64,000 nucleotides of DNA, from NCBI GenBank assembly GCA_009392915.1, contig CP045477.1:64001-128000 (forward strand), written 5' to 3'. A program made the position numbers and the translations under genes. The stretch's first letter is position 1. The number at the start of each line of letters is the position of its first letter. Below the pieces are notes generated by a model, which searched no databases, had not been told where the DNA came from, and worked only from the letters and a program-made list of their open reading frames with translations. Source of the DNA: Candidatus Forterrea multitransposorum CG_2015-17_Forterrea_25_41. GTDB taxonomy: Archaea > Iainarchaeota > Iainarchaeia > Iainarchaeales > CSSED10-239. This document shows, piece by piece, positions 8,316-53,496 of the stretch.

Positions 8316-8831
8316 TTAAAATAAAGAAAGTGCCATCTTTTCAATTATTTCTTCTTCAATATTTTTTTTATTTTTAATATTATAATAGTTTATTATTTCT
8401 TTTATTTTAGGAGTGTGTTTTTTAGTAATTTTTTTAACATCTAATTTTTTTAAAACATCTTTATTTATTTTTTTCTCTTGACTTAAGATATTTAAAAAAT
8501 AATTGTTTTTTCCTTTTTTAATATACCAATCTTTAGAAATTCCTTTAATTTGATTTGTATTTGAAAGAATCATTAAAGTTTCTGTAAAAATATTCTTTGA
8601 AATATTAATTTTTTCCAGAAATCTTAATTTTCCATTAAAAATAGCCCAATTAATGTGGTTTTCATTGTAAACTAGGGGTTCTGGAACCAAAATAACAGAT
8701 ATTTTCCCTTTTTGCTCTTTTTCTATGTTTTCAATTCTTTTTAAATATTTTTCTATATTATTAATATCTATAGAGCAATATATATTTTCTATATAATAGC
8801 TTTTTTTAAAAATACTAAATGAGTTTTTCAT
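8316..8831 (-). CDS. hypothetical protein, possibly KEOPS subunit Cgi121
   Basis: 171 aa. The central ...NIFTETLMILSNTNQIKGISK... and C-terminal ...EEEIIEKMALSLF resemble the archaeal Cgi121 layout (recalled, weak). Confidence 0.35.
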   Translation of the reverse strand: MKNSFSIFKKSYYIENIYCSIDINNIEKYLKRIENIEKEQKGKISVILVPEPLVYNENHINWAIFNGKLRFLEKINISKNIFTETLMILSNTNQIKGISKDWYIKKGKNNYFLNILSQEKKINKDVLKKLDVKKITKKHTPKIKEIINYYNIKNKKNIEEEIIEKMALSLF

Positions 8832-18257: not shown

Positions 18258-19148
18258 ATGAAAGAAAATTATTTTGTTAAAGATAAATTAAAAAAAATTG
18301 CAATTGCAAATTATTTAAAGAAAAAATTAGCTTCTGCAGGTTTTATAGATGTTGAAGTTTTAAAATCTGTGTTTAACACAAGAATTGTTATTTATTCTTT
18401 AAAACCAGGATTTATAATTGGAAAAAAAGGTTCAAATATTAGAGCTTTAACTGAAGATCTTGAAAAAAGATTTGAACTTTCAAAAGTACATATTGAAATT
18501 GGAGAAATTCCAAATAAAGATTTAGATCCAAAAGTTGTAATTGAAAATATTTTTTCAAATATTTCAAGAGGAGTTACTTGGAAAAGTGTTGTTTATAATG
18601 CTTTAAGACAAATTAAAGAAGCAGGTGCTATTGGTGCTGAAATTATTGCAAAAGGTAATACTTCTGGAAAAGGTCAAAGAAAAAGAAAATCTAGATTCTT
18701 CTTTGGTTATATGAAAAAAGCAGGAGATCAAAAAAGTCTTGTTGCAATGGAAAAAAGAACTACATTTCCTGGTCTTGGAACTATTGGAATTACATTAAGA
18801 ATTGTAAGACCTGATATTGTATTCTCAGATAAAATTGATGTTTTAGAGTTTTCAAAGAAATATAAAATGGAAATTCAAGAAGAAGAACTTTTAGAAAGAC
18901 AATCAGAAGTTTCAAAAGATGCTGAAGAAAAAGTTGAAAAGAAAAATGCTGATAAAAAGGTTGTAAAAGAAGATGATAAAACTGAGAAACCTAAAGTAAA
19001 AACTCCAGCAAAGAAAAAAGTTTCAACTAAAAAGAAAGATGATACAAAAGATGAAACAAAATCTGTAAAAGAAGAAAAACCTGTTGATTCTAAAAAAGAA
19101 GAAAAATCTTCAGATAAAGAAGAAACTAAAAAAGAAGAAATAAAATAA
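18258..19148 (+). CDS. rps3: 30S ribosomal protein S3 (uS3) with long K/E-rich C-terminal extension
   Basis: KH-domain region (GFIIGKKGSNIRALTEDLEK) and a uS3 C-domain, then ~90 aa of Lys/Glu/Asp low complexity. Confidence 0.93.
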   Translation: MKENYFVKDKLKKIAIANYLKKKLASAGFIDVEVLKSVFNTRIVIYSLKPGFIIGKKGSNIRALTEDLEKRFELSKVHIEIGEIPNKDLDPKVVIENIFSNISRGVTWKSVVYNALRQIKEAGAIGAEIIAKGNTSGKGQRKRKSRFFFGYMKKAGDQKSLVAMEKRTTFPGLGTIGITLRIVRPDIVFSDKIDVLEFSKKYKMEIQEEELLERQSEVSKDAEEKVEKKNADKKVVKEDDKTEKPKVKTPAKKKVSTKKKDDTKDETKSVKEEKPVDSKKEEKSSDKEETKKEEIK

Positions 19149-39715: not shown

Positions 39716-40255
39716 ATGTCTGAATTTATAAAATTCTCTGTACCTGAAGATTTAAGAGTTTTACAAGATGAAACTATTAAAAAATTATCAAAATCAGGTA
39801 AAATAAAAATAGGTATAAACGAAGTTACAAAAACAATTGAAAGAGGAAATGCAAAATTTGTTATTATTGCTGAAGATGTATCTCCTGCTGAAATTGTAAT
39901 GCATATACCAATAATCTCAAAAGAGAAAAAAATCCCTTTTTCTTATGCAAAAACTAAAGAAGATTTAGGTAAAATGGTTGGTATCTCTGCAAAAGCAAGT
40001 TGTGTTGCTATAACAGATGCTGGTTCAATGCAAAAAGAATTAACAACATTAATTGATAAGATTGAAGAAGTTTCTGGTGGTAAAAAAGCAGCTGTAAAAA
40101 CAGAAGATGTTAAAAAAGAAAAACCTTCTCCTAAAAAAGAAGAAGTAAAAAAAGAAGCTCCTTCTCCTAAAAAAGAAGAAGAAGTAAAAAAAGAAACACC
40201 TAAAGAAGAAAAACCAGAAAATAAAGAAGAAGTTAAAAAAGAAAACAAAGAATGA
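39716..40255 (+). CDS. rpl7ae: 50S ribosomal protein L7Ae (eL8) with repetitive K/E/P-rich C-terminal tail
   Basis: GINEVTKTIERGNAKFVIIAEDVSP.EIV.HIP......IPF. AGGAGG SD with the ATG at 39716 (track TTG at 39707). The tail carries PSPKKEE(E)VKKE repeats. Confidence 0.92.
   Translation: MSEFIKFSVPEDLRVLQDETIKKLSKSGKIKIGINEVTKTIERGNAKFVIIAEDVSPAEIVMHIPIISKEKKIPFSYAKTKEDLGKMVGISAKASCVAITDAGSMQKELTTLIDKIEEVSGGKKAAVKTEDVKKEKPSPKKEEVKKEAPSPKKEEEVKKETPKEEKPENKEEVKKENKE
40124..40198 (+). repeat. in-frame tandem repeat (36/39 nt) inside the L7Ae tail
   Basis: CCTTCTCCTAAAAAAGAAGAAGTAAAAAAAGAAG occurs at 40124 and again at 40160 with one extra GAA codon. Confidence 0.7.
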
Positions 40256-45570: not shown

Positions 45571-45981
45571 ATGGAAATAGAATTTGAAAAATCAAGAAAT
45601 GAACTTTTAAATAGAACAAATGTTTTTGTAAAAATAAGAAGTGTTAAAACACCAAGTAAAAAAGAACTTCAAACAAAAGTTGCTTCTGTTCTTGCGTGTG
45701 ATCAAGCATTAGTTGTTGTTGATAAAATTTCTCAAGAATTTGGATCTAAAATTTCAAATGCATATGTTAAGGTTTATGATTCTTTAGAAGTTTTAAAAAA
45801 AATAGAACTTGAACATAATATTAGAGATCTTTTAAAAGAAGAAAAAGAAAAAGAAGATGCTCTTAAGGCTGAAAGAAAAGCAAAAAAAGAAGCTGCAAAA
45901 AAACCAGCTGAACCTGAAAAAGAAGAAGCTGAAAAAGAAGAAGCTGAAGAAAAGTCTCAGGAAGAAGTTAAAGAAGAGTAG
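45571..45981 (+). CDS. rps24e: 30S ribosomal protein S24e (eS24) with K/E/A-rich tail
   Basis: NELLNRTNVFVKI....TPSKKELQTKVASVL......VVVDKI.QEFG. The tail contains a duplicated GAAAAAGAAGAAGCT unit. Confidence 0.9.
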   Translation: MEIEFEKSRNELLNRTNVFVKIRSVKTPSKKELQTKVASVLACDQALVVVDKISQEFGSKISNAYVKVYDSLEVLKKIELEHNIRDLLKEEKEKEDALKAERKAKKEAAKKPAEPEKEEAEKEEAEEKSQEEVKEE

Positions 45982-52474: not shown

Positions 52475-52500
52475 AATGTAATTTTTATAAACATATTTTA

Positions 52501-52555
52501 TATTACTCACATCTGTGTATTACTCACAATCTTTTTAAATGTTTTGAGTAATACA
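52501..52555. promoter_or_regulatory. three copies of a TATTACTCA(CA) motif (two direct, one inverted) upstream of fic
   Basis: TATTACTCACA at 52501-52511 and 52518-52528. TGAGTAATACA (the reverse complement of TGTATTACTCA) at 52545-52555. Located between the TATA-like TTTTTATAAA (52482-52491) and the ATG at 52561. Confidence 0.45.
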
Positions 52556-52560
52556 TATTT

Positions 52561-53496
52561 ATGAGTTATTTATCTAAACTTAAAAGAAATAATAAAACAT
52601 ATTATTATCTTGTAGAAAATATTCCTATATCTAAAGGTAGGCGAAAACAAATTAGAAAATATATAGGGACAATTAAACCTACAGATCAAAAATTATCTTT
52701 AGAACTATTAAAGTTTGAAAAAGAAATTACTTCTAAAAAAAAACAAATGCAAGGATTTACCTATTTAACTAAAGAAGAAATAAAAGAAGTAGATGAAATT
52801 AATTCAAATTTTTGGAAAAAATATAATAAATTATCAAAAACTGAGAGAGAAGAATTTTGGAATAATTTTATTGGAATTTTTGTTTTTAACACAAACTCAA
52901 TAGAAGGTTCAACTTTAACATTAAAGGAAGTTGAACTACTATTATCTGAAAATATATCTCCAAATAGACCTTTAGAAGATGTTTTAGAAGCAAAATCTGC
53001 AAAAAAAGCAATTAATTTTATTTTAAATTATAAATCTGATTTGTCAATAGATTTAATTACTAAAATTCATAAAATATATTTTAAAGAAAGCTTTCCAGAT
53101 ATAGCTGGTAAATTTAAAAGATTAAATAATAGAATAAAAGGATCAAAATTTGATACTACTCCAAAAGAACTAGTTTTAACTGATTTAAAAATACTTATAG
53201 ATAATTATAAAAAATTTAAAAAAGAATTACATCCAATAGAATTATCTGCTTGGTTGCATTGGTCTTTTGTAAAAATTCATCCTTTTCAAGATGGAAATGG
53301 AAGAATTTCAAGATTACTTATGAATTTTATACTTTTTAAAAATAAATATGCTTTAATAGATATTAAAACAAAAGAAAAACAAACATATTTTAATTCTCTT
53401 GAAAAATGTAATTATTTGAATAATGGAAAACCATTAGCTCAAAGATTAGTTAGAAGATTTAAAAAACAGTATAAAAATATATTTTCAAATTTATAG
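52561..53496 (+). CDS. Fic/Fido-domain protein (class II, internal inhibitory motif)
   Basis: Active-site loop HPFQDGNGRISR (HxFx[DE]GNGRxxR). Upstream TNSIEG matches the [ST]xxxE[GN] inhibitory helix motif. Confidence 0.88.
   Translation: MSYLSKLKRNNKTYYYLVENIPISKGRRKQIRKYIGTIKPTDQKLSLELLKFEKEITSKKKQMQGFTYLTKEEIKEVDEINSNFWKKYNKLSKTEREEFWNNFIGIFVFNTNSIEGSTLTLKEVELLLSENISPNRPLEDVLEAKSAKKAINFILNYKSDLSIDLITKIHKIYFKESFPDIAGKFKRLNNRIKGSKFDTTPKELVLTDLKILIDNYKKFKKELHPIELSAWLHWSFVKIHPFQDGNGRISRLLMNFILFKNKYALIDIKTKEKQTYFNSLEKCNYLNNGKPLAQRLVRRFKKQYKNIFSNL

What the first reader, a model, noticed from the sequence alone, without database searches (positions are those of the whole stretch)
52501..52555. 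Triple 11-nt repeat (two direct, one inverted) occupying the fic promoter-to-start interval
TATTACTCACA occurs at 52501 and 52518. Its inverted partner TGAGTAATACA is at 52545, ending 5 nt before the ATG. The second direct copy and the inverted copy form an 11-bp inverted repeat with an 18-nt spacer. That could be a dimeric repressor site on DNA or a start-codon-proximal hairpin in the mRNA. The motif contains C and G positions, so chance is less likely in this AT-rich background.
Basis: seen in the sequence. Interest (0 to 1): 0.35.

Follow-up and report, generated by a model that had tools for sequence, protein, structure and literature searches.

The report
Self-operator bracketing an archaeal fic promoter
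Three copies of a 10-11 bp box bracket the TATA box of a Fic (AMP-transferase) gene in a tiny archaeon, and comparison with about 50 related loci indicates a conserved DNA operator, most likely read by an uncharacterised, transposase-related N-terminal domain of the Fic protein itself.

Summary
TGTATTACTCA-type boxes lie at 52499-52509 (+), 52516-52526 (+) and 52545-52555 (inverted), five nt before the ATG of a 311-aa class II Fic gene. The organism is an AT-rich DPANN-type archaeon, so the conserved TTTTTAAA (52532-52539), exactly midway between boxes 2 and 3, is read as the TATA box of a leaderless gene. About 38 orthologous loci keep the same layout with fixed spacing although their neighbours differ, and the three boxes change together. 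More distant subfamilies, and non-Fic genes sharing the N-terminal domain, have their own different boxes bracketing their own TATA, sometimes as direct repeats. Hairpin potential is therefore not the conserved property. The Fic N-terminus (residues 1-55) is a confidently modelled beta3-alpha domain with no Pfam or PDB match by sequence, related by profile comparison to the N-terminus of IS1634 transposases. A blind prediction held: Asn20-to-Val proteins have TACACA instead of TACTCA boxes. Best explanation: autoregulation, probably repression by occluding TBP/TFB/RNA polymerase, by Fic's own N-domain. Binding, the transcription start and the sign of regulation are inferred, not shown. An mRNA hairpin is unlikely.

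The parts
52499..52509 (+). Box 1, TATATTACTCA (one mismatch to TGTATTACTCA); positions -62 to -52 from the ATG; 17 bp start-to-start upstream of box 2
   Evidence: conserved at 16-18 bp (mostly 17) from box 2 in 31 aligned promoters; co-varies with box 3
52516..52526 (+). Box 2, TGTATTACTCA; -45 to -35; ends 5 nt upstream of the TATA box, so it abuts or overlaps the BRE position
   Evidence: no indel between box 2 and box 3 in any of 31 promoters; 95.9% complementary to box 3 with 25 double-change cells, 0/500 shuffles
52532..52539 (+). TTTTTAAA, inferred archaeal TATA box; -29 to -22 from the ATG; centre of symmetry of the element
   Evidence: Conserved as TTTTTAAA/TTTATAA in all related promoters at the same distance from the ATG; other genes in the window without a Shine-Dalgarno sequence have the same motif at about -30 to -23; the transcription start is not mapped
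52545..52555 (-). Box 3, TGAGTAATACA on the + strand (TGTATTACTCA on the - strand); -16 to -6; lies between the TATA box and the inferred transcription start
52561..53496 (+). fic gene, 311 aa, class II Fic (Fic motif HPFQDGNGRISR at residues 240-251; inhibitory-helix motif TNSIEG at residues 111-116)
   Evidence: start codon confirmed by invariant M1, Y3, L4 in 32 homologues
52561..52725 (+). Coding region for the N-terminal beta3-alpha domain (residues 1-55), the candidate box-binding module
   Evidence: AF2 pLDDT 90-96, strands 3-9, 12-24, 27-36 and helix 42-55; no Pfam, NCBIfam or PDB sequence match; hhalign 93.5% to the IS1634 transposase N-terminus; Asn20Val tracks the box change

Best explanation
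The three boxes are a DNA operator built around the TATA box of a leaderless archaeal fic gene. The most likely binder is the Fic protein itself, through its N-terminal beta3-alpha domain (residues 1-55). Each box would bind one N-domain, with the Fic cores holding protomers together. Occupying box 2 (abutting BRE/TATA) and box 3 (between TATA and the start site) would exclude TBP/TFB or RNA polymerase, giving negative autoregulation. Box 1 would add cooperative binding. SHOWN: the repeats; their deep conservation with fixed spacing; co-variation of all three boxes; a conserved TATA-like element midway between boxes 2 and 3; subfamily-specific boxes that travel with the N-domain, including on non-Fic proteins; and the N-domain's relationship to a transposase N-terminus. 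INFERRED: the transcription start, that the N-domain binds DNA, that Fic (not another factor) binds these boxes, and that the effect is repression.
For: (1) Archaeon: S4e, eIF2-gamma and aIF5B homologues, GC about 25%. (2) About 38 orthologous fic loci (protein N-terminus 45-100% identical) share box-N6/7-box-N4/5-TTTTTAAA-N3/5-inverted box-N6/8-ATG, although the upstream neighbours differ (RNA ligase, tRNAs, others). There is no indel between boxes 2 and 3 in 31 aligned promoters. (3) Boxes 2/3 and 1/3 both co-vary (25 and 15 double-change cells, 0/500 shuffles each; slid controls collapse). (4) In L122 a tRNA gene ends at the base before box 1, so there is no room for an upstream promoter. 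The window has a class of genes with TATA at about -30 to -23 and no SD, and fic fits it. (5) No neighbouring gene is conserved across the loci, and no other ORF in the window has the N-domain. (6) Distant Fic subfamilies (28-37% identity) and an adjacent paralogue in L003 keep the N-domain and have different boxes bracketing their own TATA: AGGTGACCACA, TGTGACTACA, GTAACCCTACA, GTTATAACTACA. (7) Two of three non-Fic genes carrying the N-domain (a NuoE-like fusion, L125/L126; a 61-aa standalone protein, L128) have exact 12-14-nt repeats bracketing a TATA-like element just before their ATG. (8) Blind test: three unseen Asn20Val proteins (L122-L124), plus L102, L111 and L112, all have TACACA boxes; no Asn20 locus has TACACA as its box consensus. 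(9) The N-domain is confidently modelled as beta3-alpha and is related to the N-terminal region of IS1634-family transposases (hhalign 93.5%, P 2.4e-7; tblastn hits at transposase residues 1-35). In DDE transposases that region generally recognises the terminal repeats (general knowledge). (10) The box core occurs at 20 per kb in fic promoters against 0.08 per kb elsewhere in 147 kb.
Confidence: 0.6

Rival explanations
1. The boxes are an operator, but for a separate trans-acting regulator encoded elsewhere (for example a small standalone N-domain protein or an unrelated transcription factor), not for Fic itself.
For: Standalone N-domain proteins of 57-61 aa exist in metagenomes. Only 64 kb of a genome of roughly 0.66-0.69 Mb could be searched. 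DNA binding by Fic is not demonstrated.
Against: No other ORF with the N-domain in the window and no conserved neighbour in any locus. Box sequence changes with the Fic subfamily, and within one genome between two adjacent paralogues. Non-Fic genes carrying the N-domain have their own boxes. Residue 20 of Fic tracks a box change.
Confidence: 0.17
2. Same binder (the Fic N-domain), but the effect is activation or a switch rather than simple repression. For example, boxes 1 and 2 recruit TFB/TBP, or DNA occupancy mainly controls the oligomeric and catalytic state of Fic.
For: Boxes 1 and 2 lie upstream of the TATA, where archaeal activators usually bind (general knowledge). The BRE position is weak and variable, which might call for an activator. 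CbFic2 and FICD switch between AMPylation and deAMPylation with dimerisation, and CbFic2 does so on binding DNA (PMC10628234; PMC6826200 abstract).
Against: Box 3 sits at -16 to -6, between the TATA and the inferred start, and box 2 ends 5 nt from the TATA. Sites in those positions typically block pre-initiation complex assembly (general knowledge).
Confidence: 0.12
3. Boxes 2 and 3 form a start-codon-proximal hairpin in the fic mRNA, with box 1 as an alternative pairing partner, controlling translation or stability.
For: Predicted hairpin of -19.5 kcal/mol, z = -4.8. Compensatory changes occur between boxes 2 and 3. Mismatches are biased to G·U-type, 22 against 3. In the AT-rich window a second TATA-like TTTTTATAAA lies at 52482-52491 and could start a transcript just before box 2.
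Against: The only conserved promoter element lies in the would-be loop at a fixed 22-29 nt from the ATG. GC-richer relatives have no upstream TATA, and in L122 a tRNA abuts box 1. Box 1 co-varies as well. The distant subfamily keeps an A·G mismatch in mid-stem in L005, L007 and L008. In L011, L012, L014, L125 and L128 the TATA-flanking boxes are direct repeats, which cannot pair. No Rfam family matches in the window.
Confidence: 0.06
4. Chance repeat in AT-rich DNA, or a decayed transposon or MITE end with no function.
For: AT-rich genome. The N-domain is related to a transposase N-terminus, so the inverted repeats might descend from terminal repeats.
Against: A 4% chance of any such cluster in simulated windows. 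Conservation in the orthologous position across about 38 loci with fixed spacing and co-variation. No other copies in the window. No full module in viral contigs.
Confidence: 0.02

Closest known systems
Archaeal repressors whose operators overlap TATA/BRE or the start site (e.g. MDR1, LrpA, Phr, Lrs14-type autoregulators; recalled from general knowledge, not tested here)
   Same: Short repeated sites placed on and around the TATA box of the regulated, often own, gene. The expected mechanism is exclusion of TBP/TFB or RNA polymerase.
   Different: Those regulators use HTH, wHTH or RHH domains and are dedicated transcription factors. Here the candidate binder is an enzyme with a beta3-alpha N-domain, and the site is a three-box array (two direct, one inverted) with the TATA exactly central.
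DNA-binding class II Fic proteins SoFic (3eqx, deposited as 'Fic domain containing transcriptional regulator') and CbFic2 (8cil; PMC10628234)
   Same: Class II Fic core with an N-terminal inhibitory helix, fused to a DNA-binding module. DNA binding is linked to dimerisation and the AMPylation/deAMPylation balance in CbFic2.
   Different: Their DNA-binding module is a C-terminal DeoR-type wHTH, and CbFic2 was studied with random DNA, with no specific site identified. This family has no C-terminal domain (the protein ends about 60 residues after the Fic motif), carries an unrelated N-terminal domain, and comes with a defined candidate operator.
Type II toxin-antitoxin autoregulation (Phd/Doc, VbhA/VbhT-type Fic modules)
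   Same: A Fic/Doc-fold enzyme held in check by an inhibitory helix, with the inhibitory partner's DNA-binding N-terminus repressing the module's own promoter. Here DNA-binding domain, inhibitory helix and Fic core are in that same order.
   Different: A single polypeptide with no separate antitoxin gene and no conserved neighbour. Toxicity is unknown. The gene looks like a conserved core gene of the lineage rather than a mobile addiction module.
IS1634-family transposase N-terminal region, and transposase autoregulation through terminal repeats that overlap the transposase promoter (the latter recalled from general knowledge of IS elements)
   Same: Profile-level similarity of the N-domain (hhalign 93.5%). 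A protein whose N-terminus would recognise short repeats placed at its own promoter.
   Different: No DDE catalytic domain, no element ends, single copy, and a syntenic chromosomal gene. The function of the IS1634 N-terminus has not, to my knowledge, been tested experimentally.
AP2/ERF and integrase arm-type (Tn916/lambda/HPI Int N-terminal) beta3-alpha DNA-binding domains
   Same: Same topology: a three-stranded antiparallel sheet followed by a helix. Arm-type domains also read arrays of short direct and inverted repeats.

Membership tests
Fic/Fido superfamily, class II (FICD/HYPE-like) | Fic motif HxFx(D/E)GNGRxxR | tested here: met
   HPFQDGNGRISR at residues 240-251; H240, P241, F242, Q243, D244, G245, N246, G247, R248 and R251 are invariant in 32 homologues; PF02661 70.6 bits against a cutoff of 24
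Fic/Fido superfamily, class II (FICD/HYPE-like) | Inhibitory helix motif (S/T)xxxE(G/N) on the same chain, N-terminal to the Fic core | tested here: met
   TNSIEG at residues 111-116, invariant N112-S-I-E-G-S-T-L; best PDB relatives are class II proteins BT_2513 (3cuc), FICD (4u04) and CdFic (4x2e)
Fic/Fido superfamily, class II (FICD/HYPE-like) | AMPylation or deAMPylation activity | not testable with these tools
   Needs an enzyme assay
DNA-binding Fic proteins of the SoFic/CbFic2 type | C-terminal winged-helix (DeoR-type HTH) domain | tested here: not met
   No HTH family in Pfam; the model ends with Fic-core helices at residue 304 of 311; the alignment to SoFic covers only the Fic core
Archaeal TATA-overlapping operator (repression by TBP/TFB/RNAP exclusion) | A TATA box about 25 bp upstream of the transcription start, with regulator sites overlapping or flanking it | tested here: inconclusive
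   Conserved TTTTTAAA at -29 to -22 from the ATG, flanked 5 nt away on each side by boxes; the leaderless class is present in the window; the start site is not mapped
Archaeal TATA-overlapping operator (repression by TBP/TFB/RNAP exclusion) | Sequence-specific binding of a regulator to the sites, and reduced transcription | not testable with these tools
   Needs EMSA or footprinting and in vitro transcription
Type II toxin-antitoxin module (Phd/Doc, VbhA/VbhT) | A separate adjacent antitoxin gene co-transcribed with the toxin | tested here: not met
   No conserved neighbouring ORF within 1.5 kb either side across 36 loci; the inhibitory motif is in the same chain
AP2 / integrase arm-type DNA-binding fold | Three-stranded antiparallel beta-sheet packed against a C-terminal helix | tested here: met
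   AF2: strands 3-9, 12-24, 27-36 and helix 42-55/63, pLDDT 90-96
AP2 / integrase arm-type DNA-binding fold | Significant structural or sequence similarity to a member | tested here: inconclusive
IS1634-family transposase N-terminal domain | Profile-level sequence similarity to the first ~50 residues of IS1634 transposases | tested here: met
   hhalign of a 112-sequence N-domain profile against two transposase N-termini: 93.5%, P 2.4e-7, 49 columns. With the narrow 32-sequence profile it was 29.9%. tblastn hits fall at residues 1-35 of annotated IS1634 transposases
cis-regulatory mRNA hairpin | Both arms transcribed on the regulated mRNA | tested here: inconclusive
   No start-site data. The conserved TATA lies between the arms, and a tRNA abuts box 1 in L122, which argues that the arms are not co-transcribed with fic
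cis-regulatory mRNA hairpin | Pairing potential conserved across homologues | tested here: not met
   Conserved within the main family, but the TATA-flanking boxes are direct repeats in L011, L012, L014, L125 and L128, and a mid-stem A·G mismatch is conserved in L005, L007 and L008

The most novel reading that the evidence does not exclude
The beta3-alpha N-domain is an unrecognised, portable archaeal 'self-operator' module, derived from or shared with the end-binding domain of IS1634 transposases, that gives whatever protein it is fused to (Fic, a NuoE-like subunit, small standalone proteins) sequence-specific control of its own TATA box. On Fic it also couples promoter occupancy to the enzyme's oligomeric AMPylase/deAMPylase state. 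That would make this a single-chain toxin-antitoxin-like feedback circuit conserved across DPANN and other archaea.
Probability: 0.2. Interest if true: 0.75.

Novelty: new variant of a known kind. Interest (0 to 1): 0.55.

Why it matters
DPANN archaea are uncultivated or hard to grow, and I know of almost no cis-regulatory elements defined for them. This is a sharply defined candidate operator-regulator pair with built-in predictions: box sequence by subfamily, fixed spacing, and residue 20 against box position. It can be tested with one recombinant protein and a 70-bp duplex. It also assigns a likely function to an unannotated domain found on Fic enzymes, other proteins and IS1634 transposases. 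Finally, it extends the recently described link between DNA binding and Fic enzyme state to archaea, this time with a specific DNA site.

Tried and rejected
- **Regulon search for TGTATTACTCA** in the window with 0-2 mismatches: only the three promoter copies stand out, and the rest is at or below chance.
- **Rfam on the window:** only two tRNAs.
- **Pfam, NCBIfam and PDB sequence searches of the N-domain:** nothing.
- **Genome-contig scan with the full-length alignment:** it used generic Fic-motif patterns and mostly returned unrelated Fic proteins, although about 10 distant N-domain-bearing homologues proved useful.
- **A degenerate fourth box over the start codon** (52562-52572, suggested by the 36-nt palindrome): rejected as part of the element. 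It is explained by the codons M-S-Y-L and disappears in relatives that start ATGGCTTAT.
- **Conserved partner gene near fic:** none.
- **Viral-contig scan for the two-box signature:** over 120 hits, but no complete module and no enrichment of the 8-nt gap.
- **Association of the A/G variation at box position 4 with N-domain residues:** no clean pattern.
- **Literature searches** for archaeal Fic autoregulation, the IS1634 N-terminal domain, or DPANN Fic: nothing relevant.

Full report
**1. The observation**

- TATTACTCACA lies at 52501-52511 and at 52518-52528. TGAGTAATACA lies at 52545-52555.
- The ATG of a 311-aa ORF (52561-53496, +) follows 5 nt later. The ORF is a Fic protein (PF02661, E 2e-19).
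- The 11-bp inverted repeat is TGTATTACTCA (52516-52526) / TGAGTAATACA (52545-52555), with an 18-nt spacer.

The exact 9-mer core TATTACTCA occurs three times in the 64-kb window on both strands, all here. One- and two-mismatch matches elsewhere are at or below the shuffled expectation.

In 200 Markov simulations of the window, a cluster of three non-overlapping copies of any 9-mer with at least two G/C within 60 nt turned up in 4% of runs (mean 0.055). The real window has five such clusters. Four are AAG-rich sequences inside listed ORFs, and the fifth is this one.

- The first copy extends to TATATTACTCA from 52499.
- TTTTTAAA (52532-52539) lies exactly central, 5 nt from box 2 and 5 nt from box 3.
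- The repeat finder reports a 36-nt, 75% palindrome, 52499-52534 / 52537-52572.

**2. The organism changes the frame of reference**

The window encodes ribosomal protein S4e, eIF2-gamma and aIF5B homologues and has about 25% GC. It is identical over the fic locus to a 0.66-0.69-Mb contig of a metagenome-assembled genome. Relatives of the Fic protein are labelled Diapherotrites/Iainarchaeum and other DPANN archaea.

Promoter logic is therefore TATA/BRE, not sigma-70. The window's genes fall into two classes. One has GGTG/GGAGG-type Shine-Dalgarno sequences. The other has no SD and carries TTTTTAAA/TTTATATA about 30-23 nt before the ATG, for example the genes starting at 8831(-), 51109(+) and 59958(+). 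That second class looks leaderless.

The fic gene has no SD and has TTTTTAAA at -29 to -22, so it fits the second class. This assignment is inferred; no transcription start is mapped.

**3. Comparative evidence in the main family**

The Fic protein belongs to a large family of about 310-aa proteins, with 892 hits at E ≤ 1e-3. The first 45 residues are as conserved as the catalytic core, and M1, Y3 and L4 are invariant, which fixes the start codon.

A metagenome scan with family-specific N-terminal patterns gave 39 loci. Further loci came from exact-protein look-ups and a genome scan.

Every locus with enough upstream sequence shows the same layout: box, 6-7 nt, box, 4-5 nt, TTTTTAAA (or TTTATAA), 3-5 nt, inverted box, 6-8 nt, ATG. 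This holds although the upstream neighbour is an RNA-ligase-like gene in the window, tRNA genes in several loci, and unrelated genes in others.

In an alignment of 31 promoters there is no indel in any sequence between box 2 and box 3. Box 1 to box 2 is 16-18 bp, mostly 17.

The boxes change together.
- Boxes 2 and 3 are complementary in 95.9% of cells, with 25 double-change cells (0 of 500 shuffles reach this; slid controls fall to 25-51% paired).
- Boxes 1 and 3 behave the same way: 90.2% paired, 15 double-change cells.

A single hairpin does not need box 1, so concerted change of all three copies points to one DNA-binding specificity.

Across 147 kb of held DNA the generic core T[AG]TTAC[TA]C occurs at 20 per kb in fic promoters and 0.08 per kb elsewhere.

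**4. Who binds?**

No gene is conserved next to fic. All-against-all comparison of the flanking ORFs finds only fic itself.

AlphaFold2 models the protein confidently (pLDDT 92.6, pTM 0.88). Residues 1-55 form three antiparallel strands (3-9, 12-24, 27-36) and a helix (42-55). A class II Fic core follows, matching FICD, BT_2513 and CdFic. It carries the Fic motif HPFQDGNGRISR and the inhibitory-helix motif TNSIEG. The N-domain modelled alone gives the same fold (pLDDT 90.4).

The N-domain has no Pfam, NCBIfam or PDB match by sequence. Fold searches are inconclusive.
- Foldseek finds nothing significant.

Four further lines connect this domain to the boxes.

*(a) Distant Fic subfamilies.* Homologues at 28-37% identity, from MAGs labelled Woesearchaeota, Hadarchaeota, Aenigmatarchaeota and Bathyarchaeia, keep the N-domain (M-IEKRK-GK--KYYLVHSYR---VKKIRKYLG). 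They also have repeats bracketing a TATA about 20 nt before the ATG, but with different sequences:

| Loci | Box sequences |
|---|---|
| L005, L007, L008, L010, L013 | AGGTGACCACA / TGTGGGCACCT |
| L011 | TGTGACTACA |
| L004 | GTAACCCTACA / TGTAGGTATAC |

In L003 two fic paralogues sit side by side, each with its own box type.

*(b) The domain outside Fic.* An exhaustive profile search with the N-domain found 75 representatives at E ≤ 1e-3. They include small standalone proteins (57-61 aa), a protein with three tandem copies, and fusions to non-Fic regions. One fusion partner is a NuoE-like 2Fe-2S protein.

Two of the three non-Fic genes whose loci I could fetch have exact repeats bracketing a TATA-like element just before their own ATG:
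- L125/L126: GTGGTAATTAAACT, twice, around TTTTTATAA.
- L128: ATGTAGTGTCCA, twice, around TAATAATAG.

The third, L127, lies inside an operon with no intergenic space. So the box-TATA-box layout follows the N-domain, not the Fic core.

*(c) A blind prediction.* The two aligned loci with TACACA boxes (L111, L112) have Val instead of Asn at residue 20, which lies in strand 2. I predicted that three other Val20 proteins, whose promoters I had not seen, would also have TACACA boxes. All three did (L122-L124), as did L102. No Asn20 locus has TACACA as its consensus; L120 has it in box 2 only. These Val20 proteins are probably one clade, so this may be a single evolutionary event.

*(d) A transposase relative.* A tblastn search of a generic family member against plasmids hit, among annotated features, IS1634-family transposases (plus four "hypothetical protein" rows in Clostridium plasmids). 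The transposase matches fall at residues 1-35. Each hit is individually weak.

Profile comparison gave 29.9% with the narrow 32-sequence profile. With a 112-sequence profile of diverse N-domains it gave 93.5% (P 2.4e-7, 49 columns). No Pfam model covers that part of the transposase.

In DDE transposases the N-terminal region generally recognises the terminal inverted repeats (general knowledge). I know of no experiment on IS1634 itself.

**5. The RNA-hairpin alternative**

In its favour:
- The region folds well (-19.5 kcal/mol, z -4.8).
- Boxes 2 and 3 show compensatory changes.
- Mismatches between them are biased to G·U-type, 22 against 3 A·C-type. Nine of the 22 come from one column, the last base of box 2 next to the BRE position. 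Boxes 1 and 3 show the opposite bias (4 against 9).
- In this AT-rich window a second TATA-like sequence at 52482-52491 could in principle start a transcript just before box 2.

Against it:
- The only conserved promoter-like element is in the would-be loop, at a fixed distance from the ATG.
- GC-richer relatives have no upstream TATA. In L122 an intron-containing tRNA ends at the base before box 1, and in L115 a tRNA-Cys does nearly the same.
- Box 1 co-varies too.
- The AGGTGACCACA subfamily keeps an A·G mismatch in mid-stem in L005, L007 and L008.
- In L011, L012, L014, L125 and L128 the boxes flanking the TATA are direct repeats.

What is conserved across the superfamily is bracketing of the TATA, not pairing potential.

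**6. Mechanism proposed**

- *Shown:* a three-box array with fixed geometry centred on a conserved TATA-like element, linked across deep divergence to genes that encode the N-domain.
- *Inferred:* the mRNA is leaderless or nearly so. N-domains bind the boxes, one per box. Box 2 (5 nt from the TATA, over the BRE position) and box 3 (-16 to -6) hinder TFB/TBP binding or polymerase recruitment. Box 1 adds cooperativity.

L120 and L121 carry two complete modules in tandem, six boxes with the same internal spacing, which suggests higher-order assemblies. The fact that the flanking pair can be inverted or direct in different subfamilies suggests flexibly tethered N-domains rather than a rigid symmetric dimer.

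Negative autoregulation is the most economical reading. Activation, or a switch that couples DNA occupancy to the enzyme's oligomeric and catalytic state as described for CbFic2 (PMC10628234), cannot be excluded.

**7. Comparison with what is known**

- It works like the archaeal repressors whose operators overlap TATA/BRE (general knowledge).
- In domain order (DNA-binding module, inhibitory helix, Fic core) it resembles a fused type II toxin-antitoxin module. It is not a member of that class, because there is no separate antitoxin gene.
- It is a class II Fic protein, with all sequence and fold criteria met.
- It is not of the SoFic/CbFic2 architecture, because it has no C-terminal wHTH.
- Membership of the N-domain in the AP2/arm-type fold is not established.
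- Profile similarity to the IS1634 transposase N-terminus is established.
- Four literature searches found no description of this family, domain or operator. The library searched is incomplete.

**8. Verdict**

The element is best described as a conserved self-operator bracketing the TATA box of an archaeal fic gene, probably read by the Fic protein's own, previously unannotated, transposase-related N-terminal domain.

| Claim | Confidence |
|---|---|
| It is a functional DNA operator | about 0.85 |
| Fic itself is the binder | about 0.65 |
| The effect is repression, given the above | about 0.75 |

It is a new variant of a known kind of system and of moderate interest. The main value is a sharply testable regulator-operator pair in DPANN archaea, and a probable function for an unannotated domain.

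Noticed in passing
L089:2617-2675: A second, partly degenerate three-box module (TGTATTACTCA-N6-TGTATTGTGCT-TTTTTAATA-TGAGTAATACA) lies about 580 nt downstream of fic, after a HicB/HicA-like pair, and is not followed by fic. About 80 nt downstream is an ORF whose product starts like pyruvate kinase (MKRTKIICTIGPAS, my recollection of that signature) and is interrupted by a stop. It could be an orphan operator remnant or a second target.
   Followed up: partly
L120:1383-1500 and L121:1382-1500: Two complete three-box modules in tandem (six boxes) upstream of fic, with the same internal spacing. In L121 the upstream module has no clear TATA between its boxes.
   Followed up: partly
L003:1250-2298 (also L109): A divergent fic paralogue sits immediately upstream of the orthologous fic gene. 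It has its own N-domain (MAGLIKRTVKGKEYYYLEK...) and its own different inverted repeat (GTTATAACTACA / TGTAGGTATAAC) across TTTATAAT.
   Followed up: partly
L125:450-620 (and L126): The N-domain is fused to a NuoE-like 2Fe-2S thioredoxin-like subunit inside an [FeFe]-hydrogenase / NuoF-like operon. Three copies of GTGGTAATTAAAC lie upstream, two of them bracketing TTTTTATAA. This suggests the domain can put a metabolic operon under self-control.
   Followed up: partly
L122:225-338; L115:1367-1438; L088:1281-1403: In several relatives fic sits directly downstream of a tRNA gene, some with introns that ARAGORN misses but Rfam finds. In L122 the tRNA ends at the base before box 1. Many other loci share a ...CTGGGAGGCGGGA element abutting box 1 that looks like a tRNA 3' half but was not called.
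   Followed up: partly
L105:1400-1500: A variant promoter: only one upstream box plus the inverted box around TTTTTAAA, placed about 35 nt further from the ATG, with a GAGGT Shine-Dalgarno sequence before the start. This is a leadered version of the same gene.
   Followed up: no
window 52562-52572: TGAGTTATTTA, overlapping codons 1-4 (M-S-Y-L), resembles a fourth inverted box 17 nt after box 3 and completes a 36-nt imperfect palindrome. It is not conserved in relatives that start ATGGCTTAT, so it is probably a by-product of the coding sequence.
   Followed up: yes
window 52482-52491: A second TATA-like sequence, TTTTTATAAA, lies about 25 nt upstream of box 2, just after the stop codon of the upstream RNA-ligase-like gene. 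It is not conserved in GC-richer relatives, but it could give a longer transcript in this genome.
   Followed up: partly
window 19068-19125, 40134-40178, 45887-45946: The only other triple 9-mer clusters in the window are AAG/GAA-rich sequences that fall inside listed ORFs.
   Followed up: no
L131:1474-2004 (Clostridium botulinum plasmid pCDC3875): A bacterial plasmid 'hypothetical protein' has an N-terminus (MFLKKRLINNTFYWSLVESYREEGKVKQKIIKNLG) that matches the N-domain profile (hhalign 86.8%). The domain therefore also occurs outside archaea and outside transposases.
   Followed up: no
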